Below are positions 24,983 through 51,648 of a DNA stretch of 64,000 nt, in pieces. The DNA comes from an archaeon. Its GTDB lineage: Archaea > Nanobdellota > Nanobdellia > Pacearchaeales > GW2011-AR1. The notes below the pieces were generated by a model. The model did not search any database, was not told the origin of the DNA, and saw only the letters and a list, made by a program, of their open reading frames with translations. Location of the stretch: assembly GCA_018697295.1 (NCBI GenBank), contig JABHTJ010000004.1:1159-65158 (forward strand). The letters are read 5' to 3'. Within the stretch, counting starts at the first letter, position 1; every line of letters starts with the position of its first letter. The translations under genes were made by a program, and so were the position numbers.

Positions 24983-25003
24983 CTTTTGATCAATAAAATA
25001 ATT

Positions 25004-25582
25004 ATGAGTCAAACTAAAAGAGTGATATTATTTGCTGTGGTAGTAATAATTTTGGGAAATATTTATTTTAATGGGAATGTTAATGGGGCAAACTTAAGTC
25101 CAGGAACAGGATTTGAATGCGGCGGAGATTCATTAGATATTGAATTGAATGGGAAGAATGATGCACTAAGTTTAAGTCCTGAATCAGCATTATCTTGTGG
25201 GGGAGATCCAACAGATATTGATGTACCTGCACCGGATTGGGACGATCCAGTCCAAGGTGAAGGGAGTGGAGGTGATCCCACTGAAGAAGGAGCTATACTA
25301 AAAGCCAAAGAAGACTGTAAAGAAGATATAAAAAAAAATGCAGTGTTAGGGACATTTACTTGTAGTACATGCCCTCCCGGAAAAAGTGGTTGTAACCAAG
25401 AAATATTTGATATGTCAGACACGTTTCTTGAATGGAGTGAACTTCATTGTGAGACTAACGAGGGAGAAACTAGTCATGGAGTAAAGTTTTGGTATGCTTC
25501 ATGTGGCTGTGGCTCATCTGGCTTATCAGGATCAGCGGAAGTTGGTTGTACGAAATGTACTCCTAAACCTCAACGAAACTGA
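25004..25582 (+). CDS. Secreted/anchored Cys-rich protein, paralog 1
   Basis: Trimmed to ATG (MSQTKRVILFAVVVIILGNIYFNG...). Conserved C-terminal Cys-rich module shared with 25675-26166 (GGDPT..GA..KA..DC...KKAVLG.FTC.TCPPGKSGC.Q.I.DMSD). Confidence 0.7.
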   Translation: MSQTKRVILFAVVVIILGNIYFNGNVNGANLSPGTGFECGGDSLDIELNGKNDALSLSPESALSCGGDPTDIDVPAPDWDDPVQGEGSGGDPTEEGAILKAKEDCKEDIKKNAVLGTFTCSTCPPGKSGCNQEIFDMSDTFLEWSELHCETNEGETSHGVKFWYASCGCGSSGLSGSAEVGCTKCTPKPQRN

Positions 25583-25645
25583 AGGGATCAGCAAAAATTG
25601 AATGTTCAAAAAATTTTTTATTTATGCCCCTAATTTTGAGAAACT

Positions 25646-25653
25646 CTTATATA
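25646..25653 (+). promoter_or_regulatory. TATA box (cttatata), centre about 25 nt upstream of ATG 25675
   Basis: Same geometry as the paralog upstream. Confidence 0.5.
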
Positions 25654-25674
25654 CTAGAATTAATTAAAATAATT

Positions 25675-26166
25675 ATGGATCAAACAAAAAGGGAGATACT
25701 ATTTTTTGCAGTATTAATAATACTAGGAAATATTTATTTTAATGGAGATAGTGATGTAAACTTAAGCCCTGAAGGAGAACTATCATGCGGTGGAGCTTCC
25801 AAAGTTATTGATGTTTCTTCAGGTGGAGAGGCTGTCGAAGGTACGGGAACTGGAGGAGACCCCACCCAACTAGGAGCTGAAGCTAAAGCAGAAGCAGATT
25901 GTGTAGCTAATATTAATAAAAAAGCAGTATTAGGATCATTTACTTGTGGTACGTGTCCTCCCGGAAAAAGTGGTTGTAAACAAATAATCTATGATATGTC
26001 TGACGTTGAGCCTGAAGAGTATGAAACTTATTGCGAAGTTCATCCAGGAAAATCTAGCAGTGGGGAAGAAATTTGGTATGCTATATGTGACTGTACTTCA
26101 GGAACCATAGAGGGATCAGCAAATGTTAAATGTGGTAGTTGTTTACCCACACCTCAACCAAAGTAA
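25675..26166 (+). CDS. Secreted/anchored Cys-rich protein, paralog 2
   Basis: Trimmed to ATG (MDQTKREILFFAVLIILGNIYFNG...). Shares the N-terminal anchor and Cys-rich module with 25004-25582. Confidence 0.7.
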   Translation: MDQTKREILFFAVLIILGNIYFNGDSDVNLSPEGELSCGGASKVIDVSSGGEAVEGTGTGGDPTQLGAEAKAEADCVANINKKAVLGSFTCGTCPPGKSGCKQIIYDMSDVEPEEYETYCEVHPGKSSSGEEIWYAICDCTSGTIEGSANVKCGSCLPTPQPK

Positions 26167-32196: not shown

Positions 32197-32739
32197 TTAA
32201 CAAAGTTTAAGGCGGACTTTTCTTCCAGTAGGACAAATAACATCTTCTTTACTTATTCGTATGATTGGTGCAATTGAAAGGTAGCTATATTTTTTATCTG
32301 CAACCCCCATACTCGGAAAGCTTCTTTTAATTGTGATTCCTTGGTTTGTTCCAGGTAAATCTTCAATGCTACCGGGCTCTAATTCAGTCCCTGCAATATA
32401 TTCCACAAAAGAAAGTGAATTGGAGATTCCTTTATCATTTTCTAAAACAAAATCTAAATCGACAAGATTTATTTCTTCAGAATTTCTTGAAACTTTTACA
32501 AAAAGAAAATATGTCTCTTTACCTGGTATCCCTGTAGGATTTTCTTCTATTACGCAGAAATTTTTAATACTTATTGCACTATTAGCTGCGCGACACTCTG
32601 CAGATACTTCGAGTTTATCTCTAATTATCGGAGAAACTGCTGCCCAGACAATTACCCTAGCCGAAACTGTAACCATGATAACTAAGACTGTTGCAATAAT
32701 TTGTGAAACCGCTTTTTTATTTTTATATAAATAATCCAT
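32197..32739 (-). CDS. Archaeal type IV pilin-like protein (class III signal peptide)
   Basis: N-terminus YKNKKAVSQIIATVLVIMVTVS is the archaeal flagellin/pilin N-terminal domain signature. Confidence 0.8.
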   Translation of the reverse strand: MDYLYKNKKAVSQIIATVLVIMVTVSARVIVWAAVSPIIRDKLEVSAECRAANSAISIKNFCVIEENPTGIPGKETYFLFVKVSRNSEEINLVDLDFVLENDKGISNSLSFVEYIAGTELEPGSIEDLPGTNQGITIKRSFPSMGVADKKYSYLSIAPIIRISKEDVICPTGRKVRLKLC

Positions 32740-32804: not shown

Positions 32805-33299
32805 TTAACAGAAGTCAACTTTTTTTCGATTTATTGATGAACAAGTTATATTTTGGGACCCTAGTTGGATTATTGGTGCAATTTCAAATGAATAAAATGT
32901 TCCTGCCAAATTAATATATGTTGAATTAAAGTTTCTTGTAATTGCTATCCCATTATTTGGGTTTGGTAAATTTGAAACAGTGAAATCTTGGATTTCGGTA
33001 TATATGACTGAGTCAGAATTCCCATCCTCATCCATAATGATTATTTGTAAGTCTGTCAAATCAAATTCTTGTGAATTTCTTGAAATCTTAAATGAAAGTT
33101 CTGTACCTCCAATTAAACAAACATCTGTTAATGACATTGCACTTGTTGCAATCCTACATTCTGCTGCTTCTTCAAATTTTCCTGTAATCAAAGGTGTAAT
33201 TGTGGCCCATAGAATGACTACTACAGAAACTGTAATCATGATAACTAAAACTGTTGCAATAATTTGTGAAACCGCTTTTTTATTTTTATATAAATTCAT
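32805..33299 (-). CDS. Archaeal type IV pilin-like protein, paralog
   Basis: N-terminus YKNKKAVSQIIATVLVIMITVS, near-identical at nucleotide level to the neighbour. C-terminal domain diverged. Confidence 0.8.
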   Translation of the reverse strand: MNLYKNKKAVSQIIATVLVIMITVSVVVILWATITPLITGKFEEAAECRIATSAMSLTDVCLIGGTELSFKISRNSQEFDLTDLQIIIMDEDGNSDSVIYTEIQDFTVSNLPNPNNGIAITRNFNSTYINLAGTFYSFEIAPIIQLGSQNITCSSINRKKVDFC

Positions 33300-35395: not shown

Positions 35396-36802
35396 TTATG
35401 CAATGATTATGCTTTCTCGATTACTCATACTACTCGCTCCCCAAGAATTTATTGCTTTTATTCTATAAAAATATTCGTCAGGATTCATGTTTTCATCCGT
35501 GAATGAAGTTATTTGTGGGTCATTAATAGTTCCAATTATCCAATAAGGACCTGCATCATAAGTTCCTTTTCTAATTTCATATCCTTCGGGAGTTCCATAA
35601 TACTTTATGTCTGGGAAATTTCCATAGGGGCCTCCTGTAGGTCCTACCTGCCATGAAATCTGGACTGTTCCGGGGCTAGTTTGTGTTAAAATAATATTCT
35701 CGGGGGGAGAGGGTGGGTTTGCTTCGTATTGTCCTGGAGTTAAACTTGATCCAACAACAGCATTACTACAATCACCTTGGCCTCCAGGACCAATAGCAAG
35801 AACAGCATAATGTATTGGGAAACCATAAATATTGCCAGTGTCTTTATATTCGTCAACATCCCCAACAATTCCATATAGATCACTATTTCCATCGCCGCCA
35901 TTACAGGGAGTAGGATTGCTTGTCCCCGATCTAAAAATTGCATAATTTGTAGCTCCTTGTGACTTATCCCAAGTTAAATGGATATATGGTTTCGTATTAA
36001 ATGAGGCCTGAAAATTTTGTGGGATGATTGGTTTTTCGAGCTTAACTTTTTCATTCGATTTGTACCCATATGTGATATGGAGTTTTCCACCAACTAGGGT
36101 AAAACTACCTCCAGCAACATTTGCAAAACCATTTATTCCTCCGATAGGTCCTGTGTGCTGAAGTGCAGGATCAAAATAATGGATCGTTTTTGTAGAAGCT
36201 GAGGAATCTTTAGTAAAATAATTTTTATCTTCGTTACTGGTTAAGATTAATGGAACTTCTGGAAATTGTCCTGAAACTTGGGAATAAAAAGAACGTTCGA
36301 ACCCTGAGTCTCCTTCATAATCTTGCGTTCCATCATAAGGTCCACGAATTTGTATTGTTGAAGAAGGAGGTCCTGAAGTTGAAGAAAAAAAGAATGGTGA
36401 ATCGTCCTGGGAATTTTTATAAAACATTAATGAAGAAATTGGATATTCAAGATCTACAAAACGAGGATAATTATTGTTTGATAAGTCTTCGAACACCAAA
36501 TTCTGGTCACTTCCAACCCTTAAGTCTAACTGAATGAATTCTAAATCACCTTTTCTTGAATCAAATAAGGGGATCTCAGCCTCATACCAAGCATCGTGGT
36601 CATAATATGGAAGTTCGACAGTGTGAAACTCAAAATTAAGATGTTCTTTTAGTTGAGGTGTTATTCTTGTTTGTGTTGGTGCTGGAGAGAATTGGGCACT
36701 CGGAAAAAGAGAATTTAGTAAAATTAATGTAATGGTTAACGTGACGAGAATTGTTGCAGCATGTTTGTAGAAATTGTTATTGCTAATCACTTCTTTTTTC
36801 AT
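35396..36802 (-). CDS. Secreted protein with two C-terminal Fn3-like domains, paralog 1
   Basis: N-terminal anchor MKKEVISNNNFYKHAATILVTLTITLILLNSLFP. Fn3-like HLTWDKSQGATNYAIFRS and VQISWQ...YFYRIKAINSWG. Confidence 0.75.
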   Translation of the reverse strand: MKKEVISNNNFYKHAATILVTLTITLILLNSLFPSAQFSPAPTQTRITPQLKEHLNFEFHTVELPYYDHDAWYEAEIPLFDSRKGDLEFIQLDLRVGSDQNLVFEDLSNNNYPRFVDLEYPISSLMFYKNSQDDSPFFFSSTSGPPSSTIQIRGPYDGTQDYEGDSGFERSFYSQVSGQFPEVPLILTSNEDKNYFTKDSSASTKTIHYFDPALQHTGPIGGINGFANVAGGSFTLVGGKLHITYGYKSNEKVKLEKPIIPQNFQASFNTKPYIHLTWDKSQGATNYAIFRSGTSNPTPCNGGDGNSDLYGIVGDVDEYKDTGNIYGFPIHYAVLAIGPGGQGDCSNAVVGSSLTPGQYEANPPSPPENIILTQTSPGTVQISWQVGPTGGPYGNFPDIKYYGTPEGYEIRKGTYDAGPYWIIGTINDPQITSFTDENMNPDEYFYRIKAINSWGASSMSNRESIIIA

Positions 36803-36841: not shown

Positions 36842-38167
36842 TTAAACTGTGATTCCGCTTACTCGATCACTAAAATCACTATAACCCCAATCATTAAATG
36901 CTTTTATTCGATAATAATATGTTCCAGGGGCTACATTGTCTTCAGAATAAATTGTTGTTGAAGGATTATTGATTGTTTCCATAATCCAAAATGGACCCAC
37001 TGAGTCAATAGCCTTTCTTACTTCATATCCTGTGGCCCCAGAAACTTGATTCCAGTTAACATCTATTTTTCCACTACTTGGAGAAGAAAGAATTACATTT
37101 TGTGGAGGCATTGGGGGAGATCCTTGCGGTCCAGTTCCTTGACCTACGATCCAATTACTACATTTACTTTGACCTAGTGGACCAATTGCTAGAATAGAAT
37201 AAACTATTTGTGAGGTTCCAGTTTGGATATCTTTAAACTCATCAACATCATTTAATATTTCTCTTAAATATCCCTTATCACAGGGAGCATGTTGTGTTGG
37301 TGGATTTTGTGAATTGTAGTATGTCTTAAAAATTGCATAGTTTACTGCTCCTTGAGATTTGTCCCATGTTAAATGAATGTAGGGCAAAGTATTGACTGAT
37401 GCTTGAAAATTTGATGGTGTTGCTGGTTTTTGATTTTTTTGTTCTTTTTTTGAATTATATCCATAGGTGATTGAGAGTTCTCCTCCGATTAAGGTTCTTA
37501 TTCCAATTGAAGTTCCCGAGGGTAGTAAGCTATCACTATACAATCCTGGGGTAAAGTAAGAAATTGTTTTTGTTTCGCTGGCAGAATTTTTAGTAAAATA
37601 GTTTAGATCTTCTTTGCTGGTTAATGTTATTGGTTTTGAAGGAAACTGTCTTGCTACATCTGAATAAAATGATTCCTCATTTCCGGATGATCCTGCATAA
37701 TCTGCTGTTCCGTCCGAGGGTCCCCAAACATTTGATTTTATGGAGGGGGGGTTAGAGGTTGTTCCGAAGAAATAAGGAGACTCATCTCCTTGATTTTTAA
37801 AAAACATTAATGAAGAAAGCGGATGCATACCATTAAATTCTCTTAATGATGCACTTCCTGAAACTACCTCCAAGCTTACAAAATGCTCTGCTCCGACTTG
37901 CAAATCTAACTGTACAAATTCTAAATCTCCTTTTCGAGGATTGAATAATGGGATTTCTGCATCAAAATAAGAATCGTGATCATAATAGGGTAGTTCGACG
38001 GTGTGAAATTCGAAATTGAGATTTTTTTGTGTAGTGGTCGGAGGAGCTTTTTGTAGTTGGTCTGTTGGGAAAAGAGAATTTAGTAAAATTAATGTAAGGG
38101 TTAACGTGACGAGAATTGTTGCGGTATGTTTGTAGAAATTGTTATTGCTAGTCACTTCTTTTTTCAT
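36842..38167 (-). CDS. Secreted protein with two C-terminal Fn3-like domains, paralog 2
   Basis: N-terminus MKKEVTSNNNFYKHTATILVTLTLTLILLNSLFP. HLTWDKSQGAVNYAIFKT and IDVNWNQVSGATGYEVRK...YYYRIKAFNDWG. Confidence 0.75.
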   Translation of the reverse strand: MKKEVTSNNNFYKHTATILVTLTLTLILLNSLFPTDQLQKAPPTTTQKNLNFEFHTVELPYYDHDSYFDAEIPLFNPRKGDLEFVQLDLQVGAEHFVSLEVVSGSASLREFNGMHPLSSLMFFKNQGDESPYFFGTTSNPPSIKSNVWGPSDGTADYAGSSGNEESFYSDVARQFPSKPITLTSKEDLNYFTKNSASETKTISYFTPGLYSDSLLPSGTSIGIRTLIGGELSITYGYNSKKEQKNQKPATPSNFQASVNTLPYIHLTWDKSQGAVNYAIFKTYYNSQNPPTQHAPCDKGYLREILNDVDEFKDIQTGTSQIVYSILAIGPLGQSKCSNWIVGQGTGPQGSPPMPPQNVILSSPSSGKIDVNWNQVSGATGYEVRKAIDSVGPFWIMETINNPSTTIYSEDNVAPGTYYYRIKAFNDWGYSDFSDRVSGITV

Positions 38168-43484: not shown

Positions 43485-43901
43485 TTATGCGATTCCCGCA
43501 AGTCTTAGTGGCGTCGATACCCAGACGGATCCTTGTGCATTACCCTCATAAAATTTTATTTCATTTTGGAAGGGATTAAAAAAATCCCCATTATCTATTC
43601 CAAAACGTAACTCTGAGATTCCTCCAAAAATCGGGGAAACCATATATCCATAACCACTTCCCATTCCCGAAGAAGTAAATTTTAGTTTGCTTAAGGGTTC
43701 AACATTTATTGTAACTGCATTATTAAAAACTGCCTCTCCCTCAATTCCTCCGCTTAAATCTAATTCTCCTGCATCGTGTCCGAATGTAGTGGGGTTGCTT
43801 CCTCCAAAAGCAATTACTCCGAAAGCCCCTGCGATAGCTCCAATAAAAAGTGCTAAAAATACTGCCTCTTTTTTTCCAACATTAATATTTATGTTCACCA
43901 T
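43485..43901 (-). CDS. Seventh member of the GH[DS]GxEI small secreted family; in-frame TAA, Cys-rich tail continues to 43356
   Basis: VFLALFIGAIAGAFGVIAFGGSNPTTFGHDAGELDL matches the family N-terminus. After TAA (43485-43487) the frame continues FAPPVCDASKTGAIAYASDLQKVCYCTGFEGSWKKVSDDTACL* to the stop at 43353-43355. Confidence 0.65.
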   Translation of the reverse strand: MVNININVGKKEAVFLALFIGAIAGAFGVIAFGGSNPTTFGHDAGELDLSGGIEGEAVFNNAVTINVEPLSKLKFTSSGMGSGYGYMVSPIFGGISELRFGIDNGDFFNPFQNEIKFYEGNAQGSVWVSTPLRLAGIA

Positions 43902-43954
43902 CTATTACCTTGCTGTTTCATGTCGATTATATATTTTACTATTATTCAGAAAAA

Positions 43955-43962
43955 TTTATAAG
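43955..43962 (+). promoter_or_regulatory. TATA box (tttataag), centre about 26 nt upstream of ATG 43984 (triad 1)
   Basis: Motif and spacing match other promoters in the window. Confidence 0.55.
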
Positions 43963-43983: not shown

Positions 43984-44481
43984 ATGAAAGAGAGTTTGAA
44001 ATTAAAAGTTAGTGTTACTAAAAAGAATTTTTTTATTTCTCTTGCAGCATTATTTATTCTTACTAGTAGCTTTATTGTTTTTGCTTTTGATACCAATGAT
44101 CCTACTATTTTTGGTCACGATGGTGAGCAAGTCGAGATTGATTTAGGTGAGGGTCTTGTGTCATTGGATTATGCCTTAAATTCTCATACTCCAGGTAGTC
44201 TTGATTGTTATATTGCTGAGCAGTGTTTTGTTGAAAATTACGATCCTGGTAATGGTATTTATTGTACTGATATTGATGATGATTACACTGCTAGTTTAGA
44301 GTGTAATCCAGGTTATACTATGATGGGTGGTTCGTGTATTGATTGGATTCATAACGTGTATAATGAGTTAAATCATGAGTGGCAAAGTATCGGTGATAAT
44401 GCTTATGTTTGTAGTTCTTTTAAGGAAGTCGAGTGGTATGATGACAGGTATTTTACTATTTATGGGGTTTGTTGTAAATAG
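43984..44481 (+). CDS. Cassette 1 subunit A: small secreted Cys-rich protein, GH[DS]GxEI family
   Basis: Basic N-terminus, hydrophobic helix FFISLAALFILTSSFIVFA, then FDTNDPTIFGHDGEQVEI. Several Cys, ending VCCK. Position-equivalent homolog of 48140-48640. Confidence 0.8.
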   Translation: MKESLKLKVSVTKKNFFISLAALFILTSSFIVFAFDTNDPTIFGHDGEQVEIDLGEGLVSLDYALNSHTPGSLDCYIAEQCFVENYDPGNGIYCTDIDDDYTASLECNPGYTMMGGSCIDWIHNVYNELNHEWQSIGDNAYVCSSFKEVEWYDDRYFTIYGVCCK

Positions 44482-44482
44482 T

Positions 44483-44968
44483 ATGGTAAAAAAAATTCGT
44501 ATTAGTGGGTTAAGTATTTTTTTAATTTTAATTTTTACTTTTATTATATTTAGTTTTAGTGGGATTCGAGCGTATGGTGGGGATAATCCTTTATTAGGTG
44601 GTCATTCTGGTGATGAGATTCTAGTCACTGTTGGTGGTGTTTCTCAAACACTTAATGAAGCTCTGGATTCTATCGAGGAGGATGGTCGCATGCATTGTGT
44701 GGAGGTTACTGATTCTTCTCATTCTTCTGGCTGGCCTGGCACTACAGGTCCTAATCCTTTAATTTCTGATTGTGGAGCTGTTCTGGAGGCTGAAGGATAT
44801 CGAGTTGTTGCTGGTGCTTGTAGAGATCTTAATTTAGCGAATGGCGCTGGTGACCCTAAGTGGGATAAGCCCATTCTGGATACTGACGGAAGAATTAAGT
44901 GGCAGTGTTTAGGATACAACTGGGACGGTGAACATTATATAATAAATAGTTTGACTTGTTGCAAATAG
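44483..44968 (+). CDS. Cassette 1 subunit B: small secreted Cys-rich protein, same family
   Basis: Trimmed to the ATG 1 nt after the A1 stop (MVKKIRISGLSIFLILIF...). YGGDNPLLGGHSGDEILV; ends TCCK. Homolog of 48642-49172. Confidence 0.8.
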   Translation: MVKKIRISGLSIFLILIFTFIIFSFSGIRAYGGDNPLLGGHSGDEILVTVGGVSQTLNEALDSIEEDGRMHCVEVTDSSHSSGWPGTTGPNPLISDCGAVLEAEGYRVVAGACRDLNLANGAGDPKWDKPILDTDGRIKWQCLGYNWDGEHYIINSLTCCK

Positions 44969-44969
44969 C

Positions 44970-45464
44970 ATGGATTTTGAATTTGAAATTAGTAAAAAGA
45001 ATGGTTTGATTCTACTTAGTGGCCTTTTAGTTATCGGGGGTTTATTTGGTGTGTATGCTGCAACCGTTGCTGATGGGATTCCTTATGTTGATGGCCATAG
45101 TGACGGTGAAATTCAAGTAATTTATGGTGGTGAATCAATGTCTCTTACTGATGCCTTTGGTATTTCAAAAAATAAAAATTTGGAGTGTCATTTTTCTATA
45201 GTCAATGAGCAAACTATGAACCCTCCGTTAGTAGCTGCGGGGACTGTTCCTGCACTCTGTGATAAAGGACTAGTTCCTGAAGAAGATTATTTTCCTGTTA
45301 GTGGTGATTGTAGGGCGAATAATTGGAATCATAAAAATTGTAAGTATGACAATATAGAGATTCATCAAGGGTCCCAAGATGTTTCCTATTGGGGAGGATA
45401 TATCTCCCCCAATAGTGGTGCTCGTGTTGCTGCAGTGTGTTGTCGTTCTAAACTAATTCTCTAA
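44970..45464 (+). CDS. Cassette 1 subunit C: small secreted Cys-rich protein, same family (most divergent motif)
   Basis: Starts 1 nt after the B1 stop. MDFEFEISKKNGLILLSGLLVIGGLFGVYA then ATVADGIPYVDGHSDGEIQV; C-terminal AVCCRS. Homolog of 49169-49654. Confidence 0.8.
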   Translation: MDFEFEISKKNGLILLSGLLVIGGLFGVYAATVADGIPYVDGHSDGEIQVIYGGESMSLTDAFGISKNKNLECHFSIVNEQTMNPPLVAAGTVPALCDKGLVPEEDYFPVSGDCRANNWNHKNCKYDNIEIHQGSQDVSYWGGYISPNSGARVAAVCCRSKLIL

Positions 45465-45519: not shown

Positions 45520-48072
45520 ATGGTAAAAAAATCGGTGATATTGTTTTTCCTGAATCTTTTGATTATTTTAGCATTTGGAGAATTTGGTTCTGCGAATAAT
45601 CACTGTACTGCCTCAGATGTTCGGTTCAATAATGCCCAAGGACTTTATCTTTATTCTGAGGAACTGATCTATATTGCAGATACCGATAATCATGCTATTA
45701 GGAGATATAATTTGACATCAGGATCTGTTGAGACAATTGCTGGAGGTGGAGGAAATCATGGAAATGGACAAGGAAATGGAATTACAGGTTCTTCTGGAGA
45801 TATTGATGGGCCTGCAGCAAATGCACGATTTAACAAACCAAGTGGTCTTGCAATGGATTCTAATGGAGACCTATATATTTCTGAAATTGGGAATAATAAA
45901 ATTAGAAAACTTGACTTGGGAACTATGCAAGTAAGTACTTTTGTTGGTGGCGGAAATGGATTTGGTGCCACCGCAGTTAAATGTGGTGGGAATGACCGGA
46001 CAGAATGTTATAATGGAAATGGAGCAGATGCAGTTTTTACATTTTACGAGGCTGGTTTTGATTCGATAGTGGGAATGGATTTTGGAGCAGATGATGTATT
46101 GTATGTTGCTGACACCTTTAATAATCGAATTAGAAATGTTACTCTTGCTGGAGAGGTTGGCGTTTTTGCTGGAAGAGGAATGTGGGTTGGTACAAGCAAT
46201 ATAAAATATGGTCTTCTCTCCGAGGGTTTTCTAGATCGTCGTGCTATACCCACAACTAGTGGCGGAACAGTCATATTACCTCAGGACGTGAAAGTAATTT
46301 ATGACGTTCAAGGAGATCCGGCCGGTATGCAATTAGTTTATACTTCTGGCGGTCAAGATGGACCTTCAAGTGAAAATTTAACTGGTGGGGGCGATCTTTC
46401 AGAGAATTCTTATGGGACTTTTAATATTCAAAGAATTTATGAAAAAAATGGTATTGAAGATAATTGGTATCTTGGAGGATATGCTGGTGTTGCTTTGAAA
46501 TATGGGCAAGGAGATCTTTTCAACGGCACTGGTGACTTTGGGCTTACTCGAGGTCTTCGAGGTCTTGATATGAGGGATAGTTCGAACGGCTTTGGAAGAT
46601 ATTTGACTTATGTTGCAGATTTTGGTGCCCATAGATTAAGAGTTATTGATGATGATCAAAATATGAATTATTATTCTGGTAATGGTGCTGGATATGATGG
46701 TGGAACTCCGAGTCTTCCTGGAAGTGGTTCTCAAGATGGGACTTCCCATATTTGTTCTCAGGAAGGGGCAGGAAGTGGGGAAGTTGATGATGGACAATTG
46801 GATGATTGTCAAGGGGCAATAACTGGGCCTTCTGGTGTTGCTGTGAATGCTAGTGGAAATGTTTATTTTATTGGAAAGGAAAATAAATTGAGGATGGTTA
46901 CCCCCCATGATAATTACTGGCCCAGTGGAAGAAATTTAATAACCCTCGCTGGCCCGAACAACGGAGACATTACCTCAGGATTTGAAGACTGTGTTGATCC
47001 GGTGGTTAGTCAATGTAATGATGGCATAGATAATGATGGTAATGGTCATTGCGATTTTGATGGTGGTGGAGTTGGAAATAATGGTTGTAGTGGAGCTCCA
47101 GACCCGGGCTGTTCTGATGAAGAAGACAATACTGAAGGAAATGTAGTTGCCGATCCTAGAGAATGGAGAAATTTAATCGGCGACGTAATTACTAATGCTA
47201 ATTTTGGAGATACTGTTAAGTTAGTTTATGTTAACGGCGCTGGCTTTACTCCTTTTGAAGTTTTTGAGGATGATATTCCTTATTGGTGGGATTTTAATGA
47301 TGACGATATTATTGATCTTCTCGGAGATAATGATTCCTTAGATTTAGATAGGATTGCTTATTGGGAAATTCCTCTTGTTGGAGTGCAAATTGGAAATGAA
47401 CTTGAAACTGAATATGAACTATTTTTTGAAATCGATTCAGATGATTCAGAGCACCTTAACATAACCGGGGAAGAAGACAACAGTGAGATTACTGCACGAA
47501 TAACGAACCCTGCTTGTGGAAGGAACATTGATGTAAGAACTACACAAGCTATTCAATTTAAAGTTTTTGATGAAGACGATTTAGTAAACATTACCCTCAC
47601 AGTTACTAACAATCTTAGTGAAAATACGCTTAATCAAACATGGTATGATAATGAGAGTGGAATTTTTGTCACAGAGTTACATGATTTTAATACTGCCGGA
47701 ACTTCAGAAATAAAACTTTTTGTAGAAAATAATCGTGGGCAAAAATTTTCAACTATTTCGAATGTTATGGTTGTTGATAGGTCTCAGACTATGAAAGCTT
47801 ATGCTGCATGTATTGACGACCCTGTCAATTTTGAAAATCTTGCTCCAGGACATATAAGATTTAATGCATCGAGTTCACGAGGAATTAAGGTTTTTCGAAA
47901 TGGAAATCCCGATAAGATTTATTCCCCTAATGGACCTGACAATTTAATTCTTGAGTGGACCTTTTCCGACGGTAGAACTCACAGAGGCTCTGGCAATGAT
48001 ATCAATTGGAGATTTCATAAATACATTAGTGAATATGGAGATACTTGGGCCGACCTAAGTGTATATTTTTAA
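45520..48072 (+). CDS. Cassette 1 protein D: 850-aa secreted NHL-repeat beta-propeller protein with Cys/Asp-rich linker and C-terminal module shared with D2
   Basis: Signal peptide MVKKSVILFFLNLLIILAFGEFGSA. NHL-like blades (LIYIADTDNHAIRRYN, FNKPSGLAMDSNGDLYISEIGNNKIRKLD, VLYVADTFNNRIRNV, YVADFGAHRLRVID, GPSGVAVNASGNVYF). CNDGIDNDGNGHCDFD motif. C-terminal about 320 aa homologous to 50640-51645. Confidence 0.85.
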   Translation: MVKKSVILFFLNLLIILAFGEFGSANNHCTASDVRFNNAQGLYLYSEELIYIADTDNHAIRRYNLTSGSVETIAGGGGNHGNGQGNGITGSSGDIDGPAANARFNKPSGLAMDSNGDLYISEIGNNKIRKLDLGTMQVSTFVGGGNGFGATAVKCGGNDRTECYNGNGADAVFTFYEAGFDSIVGMDFGADDVLYVADTFNNRIRNVTLAGEVGVFAGRGMWVGTSNIKYGLLSEGFLDRRAIPTTSGGTVILPQDVKVIYDVQGDPAGMQLVYTSGGQDGPSSENLTGGGDLSENSYGTFNIQRIYEKNGIEDNWYLGGYAGVALKYGQGDLFNGTGDFGLTRGLRGLDMRDSSNGFGRYLTYVADFGAHRLRVIDDDQNMNYYSGNGAGYDGGTPSLPGSGSQDGTSHICSQEGAGSGEVDDGQLDDCQGAITGPSGVAVNASGNVYFIGKENKLRMVTPHDNYWPSGRNLITLAGPNNGDITSGFEDCVDPVVSQCNDGIDNDGNGHCDFDGGGVGNNGCSGAPDPGCSDEEDNTEGNVVADPREWRNLIGDVITNANFGDTVKLVYVNGAGFTPFEVFEDDIPYWWDFNDDDIIDLLGDNDSLDLDRIAYWEIPLVGVQIGNELETEYELFFEIDSDDSEHLNITGEEDNSEITARITNPACGRNIDVRTTQAIQFKVFDEDDLVNITLTVTNNLSENTLNQTWYDNESGIFVTELHDFNTAGTSEIKLFVENNRGQKFSTISNVMVVDRSQTMKAYAACIDDPVNFENLAPGHIRFNASSSRGIKVFRNGNPDKIYSPNGPDNLILEWTFSDGRTHRGSGNDINWRFHKYISEYGDTWADLSVYF

Positions 48073-48110
48073 TCCCAGTAATTAACTGAAGGCAAGATTT
48101 TTCCAATAAA

Positions 48111-48118
48111 TTTATAAA
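48111..48118 (+). promoter_or_regulatory. TATA box (tttataaa), centre about 25 nt upstream of ATG 48140 (triad 2)
   Basis: Motif and spacing. Confidence 0.55.
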
Positions 48119-48139: not shown

Positions 48140-48640
48140 ATGAAATTGAGAGTGGATGTTACTACGCGTAGATTTTTTATTTCTTTGATAGCATTGTTTA
48201 TCTTTGCTGGAAGTTTTTTTGTCTTCGCTTATAATAGTGGTGAAAACCCTGCTATTTTTGGACATGATGGTAATGAGATTGAAGTGACTGTTGGCGGAAG
48301 TCAAATGGATATAGAAACTGCTCTTGCGAATCCAATTCCTTCAACTCTTAATTGTGAATTAATAAGTGAATGTTTTAGTCATAATGCTTTTGATGCGTGT
48401 CCATCTCCTGTCGCTACTTATCCCAATCACTTAAAGGGAGGAATCCTTTGTGGTGGAAATAAACTTGCGTTTGGTGGAGAGTGTATTGAAACCTCTTCTG
48501 GAAGTGATGTAAACTGTAATAGTAATTCTGTTAAGACAGTAAATACTGGAAATAGTTATGATATTAATGGTGGTTGGGAAGGAAGACAAGAAAATATTGC
48601 AAATCTAAATTTTACTGTTTATGCAATTTGTTGTGAATAA
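48140..48640 (+). CDS. Cassette 2 subunit A
   Basis: FFISLIALFIFAGSFFVFAYNSGENPAIFGHDGNEIEV; ends AICCE. Homolog of A1. Confidence 0.8.
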   Translation: MKLRVDVTTRRFFISLIALFIFAGSFFVFAYNSGENPAIFGHDGNEIEVTVGGSQMDIETALANPIPSTLNCELISECFSHNAFDACPSPVATYPNHLKGGILCGGNKLAFGGECIETSSGSDVNCNSNSVKTVNTGNSYDINGGWEGRQENIANLNFTVYAICCE

Positions 48641-48641
48641 A

Positions 48642-49172
48642 ATGTTTAAAAAAATAAAAATCTCTGGAAAATCAACTACTTTTTTAGTTGGAATTTTGTT
48701 GCTCTTAATTGGCCTTGTTGGAGTTACAGCATTTGGAGGAAATGATCCTTCTGTAATGGGGCATAGTGGTGAGGAAATAATTGTTCATTATCAGGGAAGT
48801 GATGTTTTGTTAAATGTTGCTCTTCAAGGTTTAACATCTTCTGTAGCTCCGATGGAATGTAGGAGTATACGTCGACATTTTTTTGATTCTAGTTCTATTG
48901 GTGGGGGAAGTAATAGCGCAAATCCTGCCACCCATGGGTGTGATTATGAACACCCATGGGGTCTTGGAACTGAATATGCTGCAGTTTCTGGTACCTGCGA
49001 TGCAATTATCGACGATGCTTCAACACCTACGGGAGTTAATTCTGCAAGTCCTATTTATGAAAAGCCAATTTATGATGGTGCTACCGGGGAATTGAATTGG
49101 ACGTGCCTTGCCCCACCAAGGAATGCTCAAGGAGATTTCTCAATAACTGTAAACTTGGTGTGCTGCAAATGA
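48642..49172 (+). CDS. Cassette 2 subunit B
   Basis: Trimmed to the ATG 1 nt after the A2 stop (MFKKIKISGKSTTFLVG...). FGGNDPSVMGHSGEEIIV; ends LVCCK. Homolog of B1. Confidence 0.8.
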   Translation: MFKKIKISGKSTTFLVGILLLLIGLVGVTAFGGNDPSVMGHSGEEIIVHYQGSDVLLNVALQGLTSSVAPMECRSIRRHFFDSSSIGGGSNSANPATHGCDYEHPWGLGTEYAAVSGTCDAIIDDASTPTGVNSASPIYEKPIYDGATGELNWTCLAPPRNAQGDFSITVNLVCCK

Positions 49173-49654
49173 TGTTCGAATTTGATGTCCGCAAAAAGTA
49201 TTTTTTTATCCTTAGTTTCCTTTTACTAATTCTTTTGGCTATGATTGGAGTAATTGCTTTTGGAGGGAATAATCCTTCATTAAGTGGTCATGACGGGAAT
49301 GAAATTGAAGTAGTTGTTTCTGGGAATACTATGACTCTTCAAGAAGCTCTTGATTCTTCTGGTTCTAAGAATTTACGATGTGCTGTTCCAGATCAATATA
49401 TTTCTATGGCCCAATGGCCTACCCTGGCGCATGTTAGCTTAGATTGTAATGCTGAAATGTTTGGGGATAATTGGTTCGCAGTAGGTGGTTATTGTTATGA
49501 TCAAGCTAATGATGGTATGAATTGTAAAATTGATGAAATTCTAGGTCTTGGTAGTCTTTCTGAAATGTGGTCTGGAACAGTTATTGAAAGAATTTGGCCT
49601 AATCATAAAGATTGGTCTGTTAATACTGTTTGTTGTAAAACTATTGGGACTTAA
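49169..49654 (+). CDS. Cassette 2 subunit C
   Basis: ATGATG overlaps the B2 TGA. MMFEFDVRKKYFFILSFLLLILLAMIGVIAFGGNNPSLSGHDGNEIEV; C-terminal TVCCK. Homolog of C1. Confidence 0.8.
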   Translation: MMFEFDVRKKYFFILSFLLLILLAMIGVIAFGGNNPSLSGHDGNEIEVVVSGNTMTLQEALDSSGSKNLRCAVPDQYISMAQWPTLAHVSLDCNAEMFGDNWFAVGGYCYDQANDGMNCKIDEILGLGSLSEMWSGTVIERIWPNHKDWSVNTVCCKTIGT

Positions 49655-49767: not shown

Positions 49768-51648
49768 ATGAAATCAAAGGTGATGGGTTTTAACAGAAGT
49801 TTTATTCTTCTATTAGCAGGGTTATTTATCTCTATAAGTCTTGTTGATCTTGGAAGTGCTGTAAATTCTTGCGGAGACCCGAACGATGTTATTTTAAAAC
49901 TTTATAGTAATGATCAGGGTGCTGGTGTAACAAATACTCATGCCGAAGAATGGAATGGTCCAAATTATGATCACGAAATTTGCTATTCGGATATTTTTGG
50001 AGCACCCTATGCTGGAGCAAATGCTGGACCTACCGTTCATGATTCGACAGCTGGAACTAATCGTGTTTTGAATTTGGCTGCTTCAACTAATTCTCATGCC
50101 GAGGGCCCTGGCCAGAGTAATTATCCTATTGGTGTATTTTATGGAGATTTAAGTTGTAATCTTAAGGTAGTCTCATGTGCTAATGGAGAATTTCCCGTGG
50201 TTAATTTAGGTAGTGCAACTAATGCTCATCTTGAAGATGCAAGCCTTGGGAACTATAATAATTTCATTGTTTGTTGTTCTACTGGGCCTCCAGCTTGTAA
50301 TAATAATGGTGTTCAAGATGGAGATGAAACGGGTATTGATTGTGGGGGGGCTACATGTCCTGCTTGTGCTAGTCCTGCCTGTGATGATGGGGTTGATAAT
50401 GATGCTGATGGATTTTGTGATTTAGCGGCATCTGTATGTACTGATGGATCAACTCCTGGTGACCCTGGCTGTACCGATCTTTTAGATAATGATGAAACAG
50501 ATGTTGTTTTACCTGCTTGCGATGATGGGGTTGATAATGATGCTGATGGATTTTGTGATTTAGCGGCATCTGTATGTACTGATGGATCAACTCCTGGTGA
50601 CCCTGGATGTACTGATGCTAACGATCTTGATGAAACTGATCCGGTTGTCGGATCTGTAATCTGGGCAGATTTATCCGGTACTGAAATTTTTTCTGCTGAC
50701 CAAGGTGATACTGTTCAATTAATTTATACTGGCGTTGTAAATCATATAAATGATTTTGAAATTTTTGAAGAAGATACACTATTAGATATTTTAGATGGTG
50801 GGGATGTGGTGGATAATTCTCTGGGATTCTTTATTGGTGAGAATTCTTCTAATAATGTTGATTGGATTACAACCTGGGATATTCCTGTAGCTGGACAAGT
50901 TATCGGAGATAATTCTGAAACAAATTATGAAATGTATTTTGAAATTGATGATCTTGGAGGAGTTACGCAAACTTCAATAATCTTGGATGTTCCGGAAGAT
51001 AGCGATAATGATGATCCAATTGATGGCGATGGAATTATAGATCCTGCTTGTGGGACTAGATTTAATAATTTATTGACTGTTAAACCAATAACATTTAATG
51101 TTTTTGATAGAGATAGTCGAATAGATGTTACTTTAACAGTAACTCATGAGGGTGCTAGTCCAATTATTGTTTTCTCAGAACAAGATATTATTGGTGGAAC
51201 GTTTATCACATCAGATGTAGCATTTGATGTTGGTGGGACAAGTGAGATAAGATTATTTGCAGAAAATGATGATGGAGATAAATTCTCTGCAATTTCAAAT
51301 GTAATTGTTGTTAATCCTGGAGTTACTGCTTCTTATTTTGCTGCATGCATTGATGAACCCGTGAACTTTGAAAATATAGGTACTGATTATGCTCACTTTA
51401 ATGCTTCAAGTTCAAGTGGCTATAGACGTTATGGTGGTGCCTGTGGTGCTTCTTGTTCTACTCCCGTAGTTTATGCTATTTCTCCACAAGGCGGACAAAG
51501 ACCTCTTTATATGGATTGGACGTTTAGTGACGGCCGAACTCATGAAGGATTTAGTAATGCTGGCATGGGAATTAATTGGAAGTTCTACAAATACTTTGGA
51601 CAGTATGGAGATAATTGGGCTGACTTGACGGTTTCTGCAAGTCCATAA
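49768..51648 (+). CDS. Cassette 2 protein D: 626-aa secreted protein with threefold-repeat N-domain, duplicated Cys/Asp-rich motif and C-terminal module shared with D1
   Basis: Signal peptide. Three about 45-aa repeats carrying TNTHAEEW / TNSHAEGP / TNAHLEDA. Two copies of ACDDGVDNDADGFCDLAASVCTDGSTPGDPGCTD. C-terminus (AACIDEPVNFEN...WTFSDGRTHEG...YGDNWADLTV) is homologous to D1. Confidence 0.85.
   Translation: MKSKVMGFNRSFILLLAGLFISISLVDLGSAVNSCGDPNDVILKLYSNDQGAGVTNTHAEEWNGPNYDHEICYSDIFGAPYAGANAGPTVHDSTAGTNRVLNLAASTNSHAEGPGQSNYPIGVFYGDLSCNLKVVSCANGEFPVVNLGSATNAHLEDASLGNYNNFIVCCSTGPPACNNNGVQDGDETGIDCGGATCPACASPACDDGVDNDADGFCDLAASVCTDGSTPGDPGCTDLLDNDETDVVLPACDDGVDNDADGFCDLAASVCTDGSTPGDPGCTDANDLDETDPVVGSVIWADLSGTEIFSADQGDTVQLIYTGVVNHINDFEIFEEDTLLDILDGGDVVDNSLGFFIGENSSNNVDWITTWDIPVAGQVIGDNSETNYEMYFEIDDLGGVTQTSIILDVPEDSDNDDPIDGDGIIDPACGTRFNNLLTVKPITFNVFDRDSRIDVTLTVTHEGASPIIVFSEQDIIGGTFITSDVAFDVGGTSEIRLFAENDDGDKFSAISNVIVVNPGVTASYFAACIDEPVNFENIGTDYAHFNASSSSGYRRYGGACGASCSTPVVYAISPQGGQRPLYMDWTFSDGRTHEGFSNAGMGINWKFYKYFGQYGDNWADLTVSASP
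50374..50616 (+). repeat. Tandem in-frame duplication (two 105-nt copies, 138-nt period) inside D2
   Basis: 50374-50478 and 50512-50616 differ at 4 of 105 nt, all synonymous. Confidence 0.95.

What the first reader, a model, noticed from the sequence alone, without database searches (positions are those of the whole stretch)
43984..45464. Defining signature of the small-protein family: conserved motif at the predicted mature N-terminus and a terminal CC
Seen in all seven members. Each has a short basic N-terminus and an about 20-residue hydrophobic helix ending in [VI]-x-A. This is followed directly by [FY]-G-G-x-N-P-x3-G-H-[DS]-[GA]-x-E-[IL]. The seven versions are FDTNDPTIFGHDGEQVEI, YNSGENPAIFGHDGNEIEV, YGGDNPLLGGHSGDEILV, FGGNDPSVMGHSGEEIIV, FGGNNPSLSGHDGNEIEV, FGGSNPTTFGHDAGELDL, and the divergent ATVADGIPYVDGHSDGEIQV. 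A variable about 110-aa region with five to nine Cys follows. In six members it ends in an adjacent CC within six residues of the C-terminus (VCCK, TCCK, VCCR, ICCE, VCCK, VCCK). Inference: [VI]-x-A fits a signal peptidase I site, which would place the invariant G-H-x-G-x-E motif within about 15 residues of the new N-terminus. That position suits a docking or donor strand, a metal site (His/Asp/Glu), or a processing signal. A class III (prepilin) signal is the alternative.
Basis: partly seen in the sequence, partly recalled or inferred. Interest (0 to 1): 0.7.

Follow-up and report, generated by a model that had tools for sequence, protein, structure and literature searches.

The report
Conserved surface-protein leader module of DPANN archaea
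The seven small genes are real paralogues that share an undescribed 65-residue N-terminal export or anchor module, which is found on over a thousand protein clusters, apparently only in DPANN archaea, and carries many different extracellular domains.

Summary
All seven ORFs carry a basic leader, a roughly 20-residue hydrophobic helix ending [VI]-x-A, then [FY]-G-x-N-P-x3-G-H-[DS]-x-x-E. Six end in CC.

The motif is not specific to this small Cys-rich family. An exhaustive HMM search found 1191 clusters (50% identity level). Most match only the N-terminal 63 positions, with GH at residue 40 in half of the top hits. Their C-terminal domains differ: TSP1, RCC1, Gly_rich_2, T4 Gp10_C-like, or none. 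Genome hits are Woese-, Pace- and Nanoarchaeota MAGs. Pfam, NCBIfam and PDB give no match.

- The GH..E unit starts a β-hairpin plus helix. In some relatives this unit repeats three times, so a free donor strand is unlikely.
- The CC doublet belongs to one cargo type, a roughly 90-residue β-sandwich. Its Cys order resembles resistin and PCSK9 C-terminal modules, but no score is significant.
- A class III (prepilin) signal is disfavoured. Canonical pilins in the same window pass TIGR02537; this family does not.
- SPase I cleavage versus a retained anchor is unresolved.

Locally the genes form a duplicated cassette: three orthologous types plus a large anchorless secreted protein. Two related lineages have the cassette once.

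The parts
43485..43901 (-). Member A (138 aa). It has the N-terminal module (leader, helix ..GVIA, FGGSNPTTFGHDAGELDL) but a Cys-free C-terminal part. It lacks both the hairpin-helix unit and the CC.
   Evidence: module E 1e-14. Orthologues of 172 aa sit at the same divergent position in L003/L004/L005 and L020/L021.
43954..43961 (+). ATTTATAA, a TATA-box-like element 30 nt upstream of the ATG of B, the first gene of cassette 1.
   Evidence: Read directly from the upstream strings. The identical octamer sits at the identical offset before E. Its function is inferred.
43984..44481 (+). Member B (165 aa), type 1, 8 Cys, ends VCCK. GH starts at nt 44113 (residue 44).
   Evidence: Type assignment by best hits to L21_1 and L3_1.
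44483..44968 (+). Member C (161 aa), type 2, 6 Cys, ends TCCK. GH starts at nt 44600.
   Evidence: Type assignment. The start was re-set from 44375 to the Met right after B's stop.
44970..45464 (+). Member D (164 aa), type 3, 6 Cys, ends VCCRSKLIL. Its linker is divergent (ATVADGIPYVDGHSDGE). GH starts at nt 45093.
45520..48072 (+). Large secreted protein 1 (850 aa). It has an ordinary signal peptide, NHL repeats, a CxDGxDNDxDGxCD module and a roughly 350-aa C-terminal region shared with large protein 2. It has no C-terminal anchor.
   Evidence: Pfam NHL 3.4e-17. 36% identity over 485 aa to the 626-aa protein. Its only hydrophobic window is N-terminal.
48110..48117 (+). ATTTATAA, a TATA-box-like element 30 nt upstream of the ATG of E, the first gene of cassette 2.
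   Evidence: read directly. Its function is inferred.
48140..48640 (+). Member E (166 aa), type 1, 8 Cys, ends ICCE. GH starts at nt 48260.
48642..49172 (+). Member F (176 aa), type 2, 6 Cys, ends VCCK. GH starts at nt 48759.
49172..49654 (+). Member G (160 aa; an alternative Met lies at 49169), type 3, 6 Cys, ends VCCKTIGT. GH starts at nt 49286. This is the protein that was modelled.
- AF2 (pLDDT 78.7) gives helix 8-31, a low-confidence linker at 32-45, strands 46-49 and 52-55, helix 56-62 and a β-sandwich at 68-157.
- The domain-only model has 7 strands.
49768..51648 (+). Large secreted protein 2 (626 aa, 22 Cys). It has an ordinary signal peptide and no C-terminal anchor. It is the orthologue of the 597-603-aa proteins that follow the trio in related genomes.
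   Evidence: In one search, P0167 and P0168 are 44-45% identical over 98-99% of the protein.

Best explanation
The seven ORFs belong to a large, undescribed protein superfamily that, so far, has turned up only in DPANN archaea. The superfamily is defined by an N-terminal module of about 65 residues:
1. A conserved leader of almost fixed length (10 residues; consensus M-K-[IL]-E-[VI]-N-[IVL]-x-K-[KR]).
2. A hydrophobic helix of about 20 residues ending V-x-A, with aromatic residues at both ends.
3. A conserved but apparently unstructured linker, [YF]-G-x-[NS]-x-P-x-x-[FM].
4. G-H-[SD]-x-x-E, which opens a small β-hairpin-plus-helix unit (E-[IV]-x-V-x-[IV]-x-G-x2-K-T-L-Q-x-A-I-D).

Proposed mechanism (inferred):
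- The module is inserted by the Sec system with the N-terminus inside and the C-terminus outside. It then places a variable extracellular cargo domain at the cell surface.
- I think it more likely than not that the helix stays in the mature protein as a membrane anchor, and possibly as an oligomerisation helix, rather than being discarded.
- The linker plus GH..E unit forms the membrane-proximal base. In some relatives this unit is repeated to lengthen a stalk.

In six of the seven members the cargo is a β-sandwich of about 90 residues with 3-4 disulfides. Its last strand carries the CC doublet. By analogy with resistin and PCSK9 modules, each of the two Cys would bond to a different upstream Cys and staple the sheet.

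In this lineage, one gene of each of three orthologous types precedes a large, anchorless, adhesin-like secreted protein. The most economical reading is a hetero-oligomeric, possibly heterotrimeric, membrane-anchored base that holds the large protein on the cell surface.

Shown: the family, the module, its distribution, the cassette and the three types. Inferred: the topology, retention of the helix, the complex and the disulfide pattern.
For: Family and module:
- 1191 representatives at E<=1e-3. Most match only profile positions 1-63, at their own N-terminus.
- GH sits at residue 40 in 73 of 148 proteins. The leader is exactly 10 residues in 82 of 140.
- No Pfam, NCBIfam or PDB sequence match.

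Distribution:
- Genome hits are Woesearchaeota, Pacearchaeota and Nanoarchaeota MAGs.
- None in IMG/VR viral contigs.

Extracellular location of the cargo:
- Cys count is even in 140 of 155 proteins.
- Cargo domains include TSP1, RCC1, Gly_rich_2 and Gp10_C.

The GH..E unit is a fold element rather than a terminal tag:
- AF2 places a hairpin at 46-55 and a helix at 56-62 with pLDDT 83-89.
- Three tandem copies occur in P0005, P0059, P0090, P0108, P0123, P0128 and P0135.

Retention of the helix:
- The uncharged span has a median of 23 residues, which includes +1 to +3. Ordinary signal peptides of this window have 16-17.
- Leader plus helix is 50-73% identical between type-1 orthologues, against 18-33% for the cargo.
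- The large partner proteins have no anchor of their own.

Cassette:
- The same gene order recurs in three lineages: KaiC, ThrRS, 178-aa gene, methyltransferase, A on the opposite strand, three small genes, a large protein, then an Elp3-like gene. It occurs once in L003-L005 and in L020/L021, and twice in this window.
- Each cassette has one gene of each of three orthologous types.

CC doublet:
- The family profile aligns its conserved Cys, including the terminal CC, to PCSK9 modules M2 and M3.
- Published PCSK9 module pairing is Cys1-6, 2-5 and 3-4 (PMC9113161).
Against: - The -1 position (Ala 93%) and the -3 position (Val/Ala/Gly/Ile), plus a Gly at -7 (66%), are exactly what SPase I needs. 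They would be an odd coincidence in a plain anchor.
- No signal-peptide predictor could be run.
- High conservation of a signal sequence next to fast-evolving cargo has precedents, for example conotoxin precursors (my own knowledge). One search is therefore not decisive.
- In most other MAGs the family gene is solitary and sits next to housekeeping genes (MetRS, a tRNA-binding protein). No large partner is adjacent. The complex model may hold only for this clade.
- No multimer model and no coordinates were available. Oligomerisation and disulfide pairing are untested.
- The similarity to PCSK9 and resistin is not significant. HMM E is 0.1, Foldseek E is at least 0.12, TM is about 0.5 (the same as to an unrelated ERAP2 sandwich), and hhalign probability is 8% or less.
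Confidence: 0.5

Rival explanations
1. The leader plus helix is a Sec signal peptide cut by signal peptidase I after V-x-A. The mature protein then starts [YF]-G-x-N-x-P-x-x-F-G-H-S-x-x-E. This free, conserved N-terminal peptide docks the protein to a partner, binds a metal, or is further processed. The proteins are soluble or held non-covalently on the surface.
For: - The -1 and -3 positions and the Gly at -7 fit the SPase I rule. The +1 residue is never Pro.
- R, K, N or T sometimes sits at -2 (GIRA, GVTA, FVRA, VVNA), which places that point at the outer interface.
- The linker is conserved but has low pLDDT (57), like a short linear motif.
- Archaeal thread subunits use exactly this logic: SPI cleavage at LVA/DV, then a conserved N-terminal segment used in assembly (PMC9715654).
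Against: - The hydrophobic stretch is about 20 residues with no polar c-region. That is longer than ordinary signal peptides in the same window.
- The leader and helix are more conserved than the cargo between orthologues.
- After cleavage, neither the small proteins nor the large partners would have any recognisable anchor.
- The GH..E strand is predicted to pair within its own chain, and the unit also occurs internally.
Confidence: 0.35
2. The proteins are pilin-like subunits with a non-canonical class III (prepilin-type) leader. The 10-residue leader is removed on the cytoplasmic side. The hydrophobic helix becomes the core of a filament. The three small types act like minor pilins, and the large NHL protein acts like a PilY1-type tip adhesin.
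For: - The leader has a fixed length of 10 residues and a conserved sequence, followed by a hydrophobic helix of about 20 residues and a variable β-rich head. This is the general layout of pilins.
- Several paralogues sit in one operon with a large β-propeller protein.
Against: - There is no [KR]-[GA] cleavage site; the consensus is KK-[YH]-[FA]-[FY].
- TIGR02537 and Pilin_N do not hit any member or the family consensus.
- The pilin gene at 32805-33299 of the same window passes TIGR02537, with 22.4 bits against a cut-off of 20.
- The predicted helix ends at the membrane boundary and does not pack on the β-sheet.
- No pilus ATPase or platform gene lies next to the cassettes.
Confidence: 0.05
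3. G-H-S-x-G-E is a serine-hydrolase or acyltransferase nucleophile elbow (GxSxG, as in FabD and PKS acyltransferase domains), so the proteins are small enzymes.
For: The profile weakly picks up a PKS acyltransferase domain (L019, AVFGHSAGEI), FAS malonyl transferase and a carboxylesterase.
Against: - Those matches are not significant (E 0.12-0.7) and cover only the motif.
- Ser is replaced by Asp in four of the seven window members. The second Gly is not conserved, at 71 of 140.
- There is no α/β-hydrolase fold. The motif lies in a loop before a β-hairpin.
Confidence: 0.02

Closest known systems
Family-specific conserved signal or anchor regions on diverse surface proteins: the YSIRK-G/S signal (PF04650), the ESPR extended signal peptide region (PF13018) and the KxYKxGKxW signal (TIGR03715). 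This comparison rests on my own knowledge.
   Same: A recognisable, conserved N-terminal export sequence is shared by many otherwise unrelated cell-surface proteins within one group of organisms.
   Different: - There is no sequence relationship, and none of these models hits.
- This module is archaeal.
- It also includes a conserved segment of about 30 residues on the outer side of the membrane (linker plus GH..E hairpin-helix).
- It may not be cleaved at all.
Archaeal class III signal peptides, type IV pilins and archaellins (TIGR02537 arch_flag_Nterm, PF07790 Pilin_N).
   Same: Both have a short charged leader, about 20 hydrophobic residues, a variable β-rich C-terminal domain, and several paralogues per operon.
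   Different: - There is no [KR]-[GA] cleavage site and no HMM match, whereas a true pilin in the same window does match.
- The helix is not predicted to extend onto the globular domain.
[quoted passage not shown]
   Same: - Both are small β-sandwiches of about 75-90 residues with six Cys in the same order: the first at the start of strand 1, a C-x2-G-[YW]-x-[LV]-x-G-[GC] turn, and an adjacent CC in the last strand a few residues from the end. Compare PCSK9 '...VTAVAICCRS' with member D '...RVAAVCCRSK'.
- PCSK9 and resistin-like β are among the top fold and profile hits.
- Published PCSK9 module pairing is 1-6, 2-5 and 3-4 (PMC9113161).
   Different: - No score is significant. HMM E is 0.1, Foldseek E is at least 0.12, TM is about 0.5, and hhalign probability is 8% or less.
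- Cys spacing is wider, and type 1 has two extra Cys.
- The N-terminal parts are unrelated.
- The disulfide pairing is not verified here.
Archaeal filaments assembled by donor-strand complementation after SPase I cleavage: Sulfolobus threads (Saci_0406), cannulae and bundling pili.
   Same: These use Sec export and have a conserved segment right after the predicted SPI site that takes part in assembly. They are small β-sandwich subunits with a putative cap protein encoded nearby (PMC9715654).
   Different: - There is no sequence similarity.
- The strand after GH..E is predicted to be satisfied within its own chain, and the unit occurs as internal repeats.
- The β-sandwich is closed by disulfides.
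- There is no evidence of a missing strand.

Membership tests
Archaeal class III signal / type IV pilin N-terminal domain (TIGR02537, PF07790) | A cleavage site [KR]-[GA] placed directly before the hydrophobic stretch. | tested here: not met
   The family consensus at that point is K-[KR]-[YH]-[FA]-[FY]. Among the seven window members, only A (KKEA|V) shows a small residue there with a charged residue at -2; C, D and F have Gly or Ala preceded by an uncharged residue.
Archaeal class III signal / type IV pilin N-terminal domain (TIGR02537, PF07790) | A match to the curated N-terminal HMM. | tested here: not met
   There is no hit for members or for the consensus. The positive control in the same window, 32805-33299, scores 22.4 bits against a cut-off of 20.
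Archaeal class III signal / type IV pilin N-terminal domain (TIGR02537, PF07790) | Processing by a PibD/FlaK-type prepilin peptidase and assembly by a pilus ATPase and platform. | not testable with these tools
   No such genes lie next to the cassettes. The rest of the genome was not available.
Sec signal peptide cleaved by signal peptidase I | A positively charged n-region. | tested here: met
   K/R is present at positions 9-10 of the consensus and in all seven members.
Sec signal peptide cleaved by signal peptidase I | Small or neutral residues at -1 and -3, with no Pro at +1. | tested here: met
   At -1: Ala 130, Gly 6, Ser 3, Val 1 of 140. At -3: Val 107, Gly 13, Ala 10, Ile 7. At +1: Tyr or Phe in 132 of 140.
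Sec signal peptide cleaved by signal peptidase I | A short h-region (about 7-15 residues) followed by a more polar c-region. | tested here: inconclusive
   The uncharged span has a median of 23 residues, against 16-17 for ordinary signal peptides of this window. There is no polar c-region. A Gly at -7 (93 of 140) could divide the span into an h-region and a c-region.
Sec signal peptide cleaved by signal peptidase I | Actual removal of the peptide. | not testable with these tools
   No SignalP or DeepTMHMM and no proteomic data were available.
Resistin / PCSK9 C-terminal Cys-rich module | A small β-sandwich of about 75-90 residues. | tested here: met
   The AF2 domain model has seven strands, pLDDT 74.8 and pTM 0.65.
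Resistin / PCSK9 C-terminal Cys-rich module | Six Cys in a conserved order with an adjacent CC near the C-terminus, paired 1-6, 2-5 and 3-4. | tested here: inconclusive
   The Cys order and the terminal CC are present and align to PCSK9 M2 and M3. The pairing could not be checked because no coordinates were returned.
Resistin / PCSK9 C-terminal Cys-rich module | Statistically significant sequence or structure similarity. | tested here: not met
   HMM E is 0.1. hhalign probability is 8% and 0.7%. The best Foldseek E values are 0.12 and 0.16, and TMq of 0.50-0.54 equals that to the unrelated ERAP2 sandwich. Pfam PCSK9_C and Resistin models do not hit.
Donor-strand-complemented archaeal filament subunits (threads, cannulae) | A free N-terminal β-strand tail that completes a neighbouring subunit's incomplete sheet. 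| tested here: inconclusive
   The first strand after GH..E is modelled in an intramolecular hairpin with pLDDT 83-89. The unit also occurs as internal repeats. The roughly 10 residues before GH are unmodelled and could still dock elsewhere. No multimer prediction was possible.
Any curated family (Pfam-A, NCBIfam) covering the N-terminal module | An HMM match at or near the curated cut-off. | tested here: not met
   Searches hit only cargo domains (TSP_1, RCC1, Gly_rich_2, Gp10_C), never the module.

The most novel reading that the evidence does not exclude
The conserved 10-residue leader, the helix and the juxtamembrane [YF]-G-x-N-x-P-x-x-F-G-H-S-x-x-E peptide together form the recognition signal of a so-far unknown surface-protein sorting or assembly pathway specific to DPANN archaea. 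This pathway would be a functional counterpart of the prepilin peptidase, sortase and archaeosortase systems. It would process or attach more than a thousand different cargo proteins, many with trimeric, phage-fibre-like or adhesin-like heads, that these host-dependent archaea use to contact other cells.
Probability: 0.2. Interest if true: 0.8.

Novelty: new variant of a known kind. Interest (0 to 1): 0.58.

Why it matters
Woese-, Pace- and Nanoarchaeota are abundant, mostly uncultured archaea with tiny genomes, and they are thought to live attached to other cells. How they build and organise their surface is largely unknown.

A single N-terminal module tags over a thousand otherwise unrelated extracellular proteins in these lineages. 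That gives three practical gains:
- A sequence handle for cataloguing their surface proteome.
- A candidate sorting or anchoring signal that can be tested directly by N-terminal proteomics and mutagenesis of His/Glu.
- In this lineage, a compact four-gene cassette (three small subunit types plus a large adhesin-like protein) suited to structural work.

The module also deserves a curated model, because current Pfam and NCBIfam annotation leaves all these proteins as 'hypothetical'.

Tried and rejected
- **Word-indexed homologue searches** were almost blind to the family, returning 5 and 14 hits. Only the exhaustive HMM search revealed it.
- **Spurious profile hits were set aside.**
  - P0110 is a Bacteroidetes SprB-repeat/T9SS protein.
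  - P0056 is a coiled-coil protein.
  - L019 and several PDB hits are acyltransferase or esterase GHSxGE motifs.
- **A GxSxG hydrolase reading was rejected.** Ser is Asp in four of the seven members and the second Gly is not conserved.
- **Fold searches of two AF2 models against the PDB** gave nothing below E 0.1. The PCSK9/resistin lead did not gain support from hhalign, so I keep it as a resemblance only.
- **The full N-module alignment (A3) was too variable** for the locus finder. A narrower alignment (A4) worked, but it samples only members with [VT]FGHSAGE. The taxonomic picture is therefore partial.
- **The viral contig scan** found no relatives.
- **The search with the 626-aa partner protein** found full-length relatives only in the same clade. 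Other hits share only short Cys/Asp-rich modules. Its PDB sequence search was empty.
- **The bacterial-type promoter and terminator scan** was at chance level, 29 found against 30 expected. Rfam found only three tRNAs.
- **Literature searches** found no description of this module.
Full report
**1. What is in the window**

ORF listing and a six-frame motif scan confirm seven paralogous genes:
- A 43485-43901 (-)
- B 43984-44481
- C 44483-44968
- D 44970-45464
- E 48140-48640
- F 48642-49172
- G 49172-49654

The finding's coordinates cover only B, C and D. Each protein has three features in order:
- a K/R-containing leader;
- an uncharged stretch of 20-24 residues ending [VI]-x-A;
- the quoted [FY]-G-G-x-N-P-x3-G-H-[DS]-x-x-E strings.

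A module HMM built from the seven finds no other copy among all six-frame ORFs of the window. Self-scores are E 1e-15 to 1e-21, and the next best hit is E 4.8.

Corrections to the finding:
- B-G have 8, 6, 6, 8, 6 and 6 Cys.
- A has no Cys, no CC and a different C-terminal part.
- Only P, G-H and E are invariant.

**2. Local organisation**

The genes form two copies of one cassette: [B C D + 850-aa protein] and [E F G + 626-aa protein].
- Within each cassette the small genes abut or overlap.
- The two large proteins share a C-terminal region of about 350 aa at 36% identity.
- Both large proteins have ordinary signal peptides and no other hydrophobic segment.
- The 850-aa protein has NHL repeats.
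- An identical ATTTATAA octamer lies 30 nt upstream of the ATG of B and of E. This suggests archaeal promoters with little or no leader.

Two related lineages carry the same neighbourhood with a single cassette (L003-L005 and L020/L021). The order is KaiC-like ATPase, ThrRS, a 178-aa gene, a methyltransferase, the A orthologue on the opposite strand, three small genes, a 597-603-aa protein, then an Elp3-like radical-SAM gene.

An all-against-all BLAST separates the small proteins into three orthologous types:
- type 1: B, E
- type 2: C, F
- type 3: D, G

Every cassette has one gene of each type. The three are therefore not redundant.

**3. The motif defines a much larger group**

Word-indexed searches returned almost only the genome itself. 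The exhaustive HMM search over 1.84 billion representatives gave 1191 proteins at E<=1e-3 and 84 at E<=1e-10.

Most hits match only profile positions 1-63, at their own N-terminus, and then continue into unrelated sequence.

I selected 140 of the top hits by a GH-x-x-x-[ED] match. Their consensus is M-K-[IL]-E-[VI]-N-[IVL]-x-K-[KR]-[YH]-[FA]-[FY]-..-G-x3-V-[YIF]-A-[YF]-G-x-[NS]-x-P-x-[VI]-[FM]-G-H-S-x-x-E-[IVL]-[ED]-V-x-[IV]-x-G-x2-K-[TS]-L-[QN]-x-A-[IL]-[DN].
- P is present in 138 of 140 and S in 124 of 140. GH and the acidic residue follow from the selection.
- GH begins at residue 40 in 73 of 148 proteins.
- The leader is exactly 10 residues in 82 of 140.

C-terminal parts include TSP1, an RCC1 propeller, Gly_rich_2, a T4 Gp10_C-like head, or nothing recognisable.
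- The Cys count is even in 140 of 155 proteins, which fits oxidised extracellular domains.
- A CC near the C-terminus occurs in only 40 of 155.

Genome-collection hits are Woesearchaeota, Pacearchaeota and Nanoarchaeota MAGs. This scan could see only members with [VT]FGHSAGE. No relatives were found in IMG/VR.

No Pfam, NCBIfam or PDB sequence covers the module. The literature searches turned up no description of it.

**4. Anatomy of the module**

AF2 on G with a 35-sequence alignment gave pLDDT 78.7:

| Residues | Prediction | Confidence |
|---|---|---|
| 8-31 | helix | not stated separately |
| 32-45 | stretch F-G-G-N-N-P-S-L-S-G-H | pLDDT 57 for residues 31-40, 83 from residue 41 |
| 46-49 and 52-55 | β-hairpin | pLDDT 83-89 |
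| 56-62 | helix | pLDDT 83-89 |
| 68-157 | β-sandwich | not stated separately |

- The unit from GH..E through the helix occurs three times in tandem, about 45 aa apart, in several relatives: P0005, P0059, P0090, P0108, P0123, P0128 and P0135.
- Other relatives lack the unit. In these, a Gly-rich linker follows GHSAGEIE directly.
- GH..E is therefore the start of a small fold unit rather than a free terminal strand.
- The roughly 10 residues before it are conserved yet unstructured in the model. That is the hallmark of a segment that acts through an intermolecular contact or through processing.

**5. Cleaved signal, anchor or prepilin?**

*Class III (prepilin) signal.*
- The window itself holds two canonical pilin-like genes (32197-32739 and 32805-33299) that begin ..KNKKA|VSQIIATVLVIM.
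- One of them passes TIGR02537, at 22.4 bits against a cut-off of 20.
- The family has no [KR]-[GA] site and no hit to that model or to Pilin_N.
- I rate this reading at about 5%.

*SPase I cleavage: evidence for.*
- The -1 and -3 positions and the Gly at -7 fit the rule well.
- Polar or charged residues sometimes occur at -2.

*SPase I cleavage: evidence against.*
- The uncharged span is about 20 residues up to the Ala, with no polar c-region. Ordinary signal peptides here have 16-17.
- Aromatic residues flank both ends of the helix.
- In type-1 orthologues the leader plus helix is 50-73% identical, while the cargo is only 18-33%.
- If everything were cleaved, neither the small proteins nor the large partners would have an anchor.

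I lean towards retention of the helix, at about 0.5 against 0.35 for cleavage. This needs a predictor or proteomic evidence.

**6. The terminal CC**

The profile of the Cys-rich members aligns to PCSK9 C-terminal modules M2 and M3. All conserved Cys are in register, including the terminal '..A-[IV]-C-C-[RK]-S' (E 0.1).

Resistin-like β and the PCSK9 Cys-rich domain are among the top Foldseek hits for the full model. Resistin-like β is rank 1 at E 0.12, and PCSK9 reaches probability 0.97.

Published work describes each PCSK9 module as having six Cys paired 1-6, 2-5 and 3-4, and as being structurally homologous to resistin (PMC9113161).

However, none of the scores supports homology:
- A domain-only model (pLDDT 74.8) gave TM of only about 0.5 to PCSK9. 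It gave the same to an unrelated ERAP2 sandwich.
- hhalign against single modules gave probability of 8% or less.

I therefore describe the cargo as a seven-stranded, disulfide-stapled β-sandwich with a resistin/PCSK9-like Cys framework. It works like those modules, but membership is not established.

**7. Proposed function**

- The module is a lineage-specific device that exports a variable extracellular domain, and probably anchors it, at the cell surface. The GH..E unit or units form the membrane-proximal base.
- Several cargo types (Gp10_C-like heads and resistin-like sandwiches, from my own knowledge) are trimer-forming elsewhere.
- This clade keeps exactly one gene of each of three types in front of an anchorless large protein.
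- I propose a hetero-oligomeric anchored base that holds an adhesin-like partner.
- In most other MAGs the family gene is solitary and lies next to housekeeping genes, for example between MetRS and a tRNA-binding protein gene in L011, L013 and L017. The complex model may therefore be specific to this clade.

**8. Verdict**

The motif is real, conserved and unannotated. It is the signature of a broad DPANN superfamily module rather than of the small Cys-rich family.
- The donor-strand and class III ideas are weakened.
- Cleavage remains open.

The finding is a new variant of a known kind: a conserved export or anchor signal shared by diverse surface proteins. I rate its interest as moderate to good.

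Noticed in passing
window 32197-32739 (-) and 32805-33299 (-): Two tandem canonical archaeal pilin-like genes start ..YKNKKA|VSQIIATVLVIM. The second passes TIGR02537 (22.4 bits against a cut-off of 20) and weakly resembles UpsA. I used it as the in-genome control for class III signals.
   Followed up: partly
window 35396-36802 (-) and 36842-38167 (-): Tandem paralogues have a C-terminal fn3 domain and nearly identical N-terminal anchors (MKKEV[IT]SNNNFYKH[AT]ATILVTLT..). A related fn3 gene occupies the same position in L003 and L004.
   Followed up: no
window 24986-25582 (+) and 25624-26166 (+): A second pair of tandem small Cys-rich proteins (11 and 10 Cys) shares an N-terminus (QTKRxILFAVVxIILGNIYFNG) and a C-terminal W-Y-A-x-C-x-C motif. 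Neither matches any family model, and they are unrelated to the GH..E family.
   Followed up: no
window 20715-23378 (+): An 887-aa protein has 40 Cys, an N-terminal hydrophobic segment and weak Peptidase_M64 and DUF4215 matches.
   Followed up: no
window 43954-43961 and 48110-48117 (+): An identical ATTTATAA octamer lies exactly 30 nt upstream of the start codons of B and E. These are likely TATA boxes of the two cassette operons, which implies very short or absent 5' leaders.
   Followed up: no
L011 5998-6612, L013 5971-6546, L017 5974-6843: In three Woesearchaeota/Nanoarchaeota MAGs a solitary family member follows the MetRS gene. In two of them it precedes a small tRNA-binding (EMAP-like) gene and a MinD/ParA-like gene. 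This is a conserved housekeeping neighbourhood, unlike the cassette in the window.
   Followed up: partly
L009 5992-6489 and P0038: On these proteins the N-terminal module carries a cargo that matches the T4 baseplate Gp10 C-terminal head domain (27.3 bits against a cut-off of 27; 24.3 bits for P0038). This is a phage-fibre-type head on an archaeal membrane protein.
   Followed up: partly
L007 5983-6423 and 6531-6923; L012 942-2484: Tandem family genes within one MAG have identical or near-identical N-terminal modules (about 58 of the first 60 residues in L007) but different cargo. This suggests recent duplication or gene conversion of the 5' part, with diversification of the 3' part.
   Followed up: no
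window 45520-48072 and 49768-51648; L009 8200-10176: The large partner proteins contain CxDGxDNDxDGxCD modules that are widespread in unrelated secreted proteins. The 626-aa type has an N-terminal region with three N-x-H-[AL]-E repeats. A similar N-terminus appears two genes downstream of the family gene in L009.
   Followed up: partly
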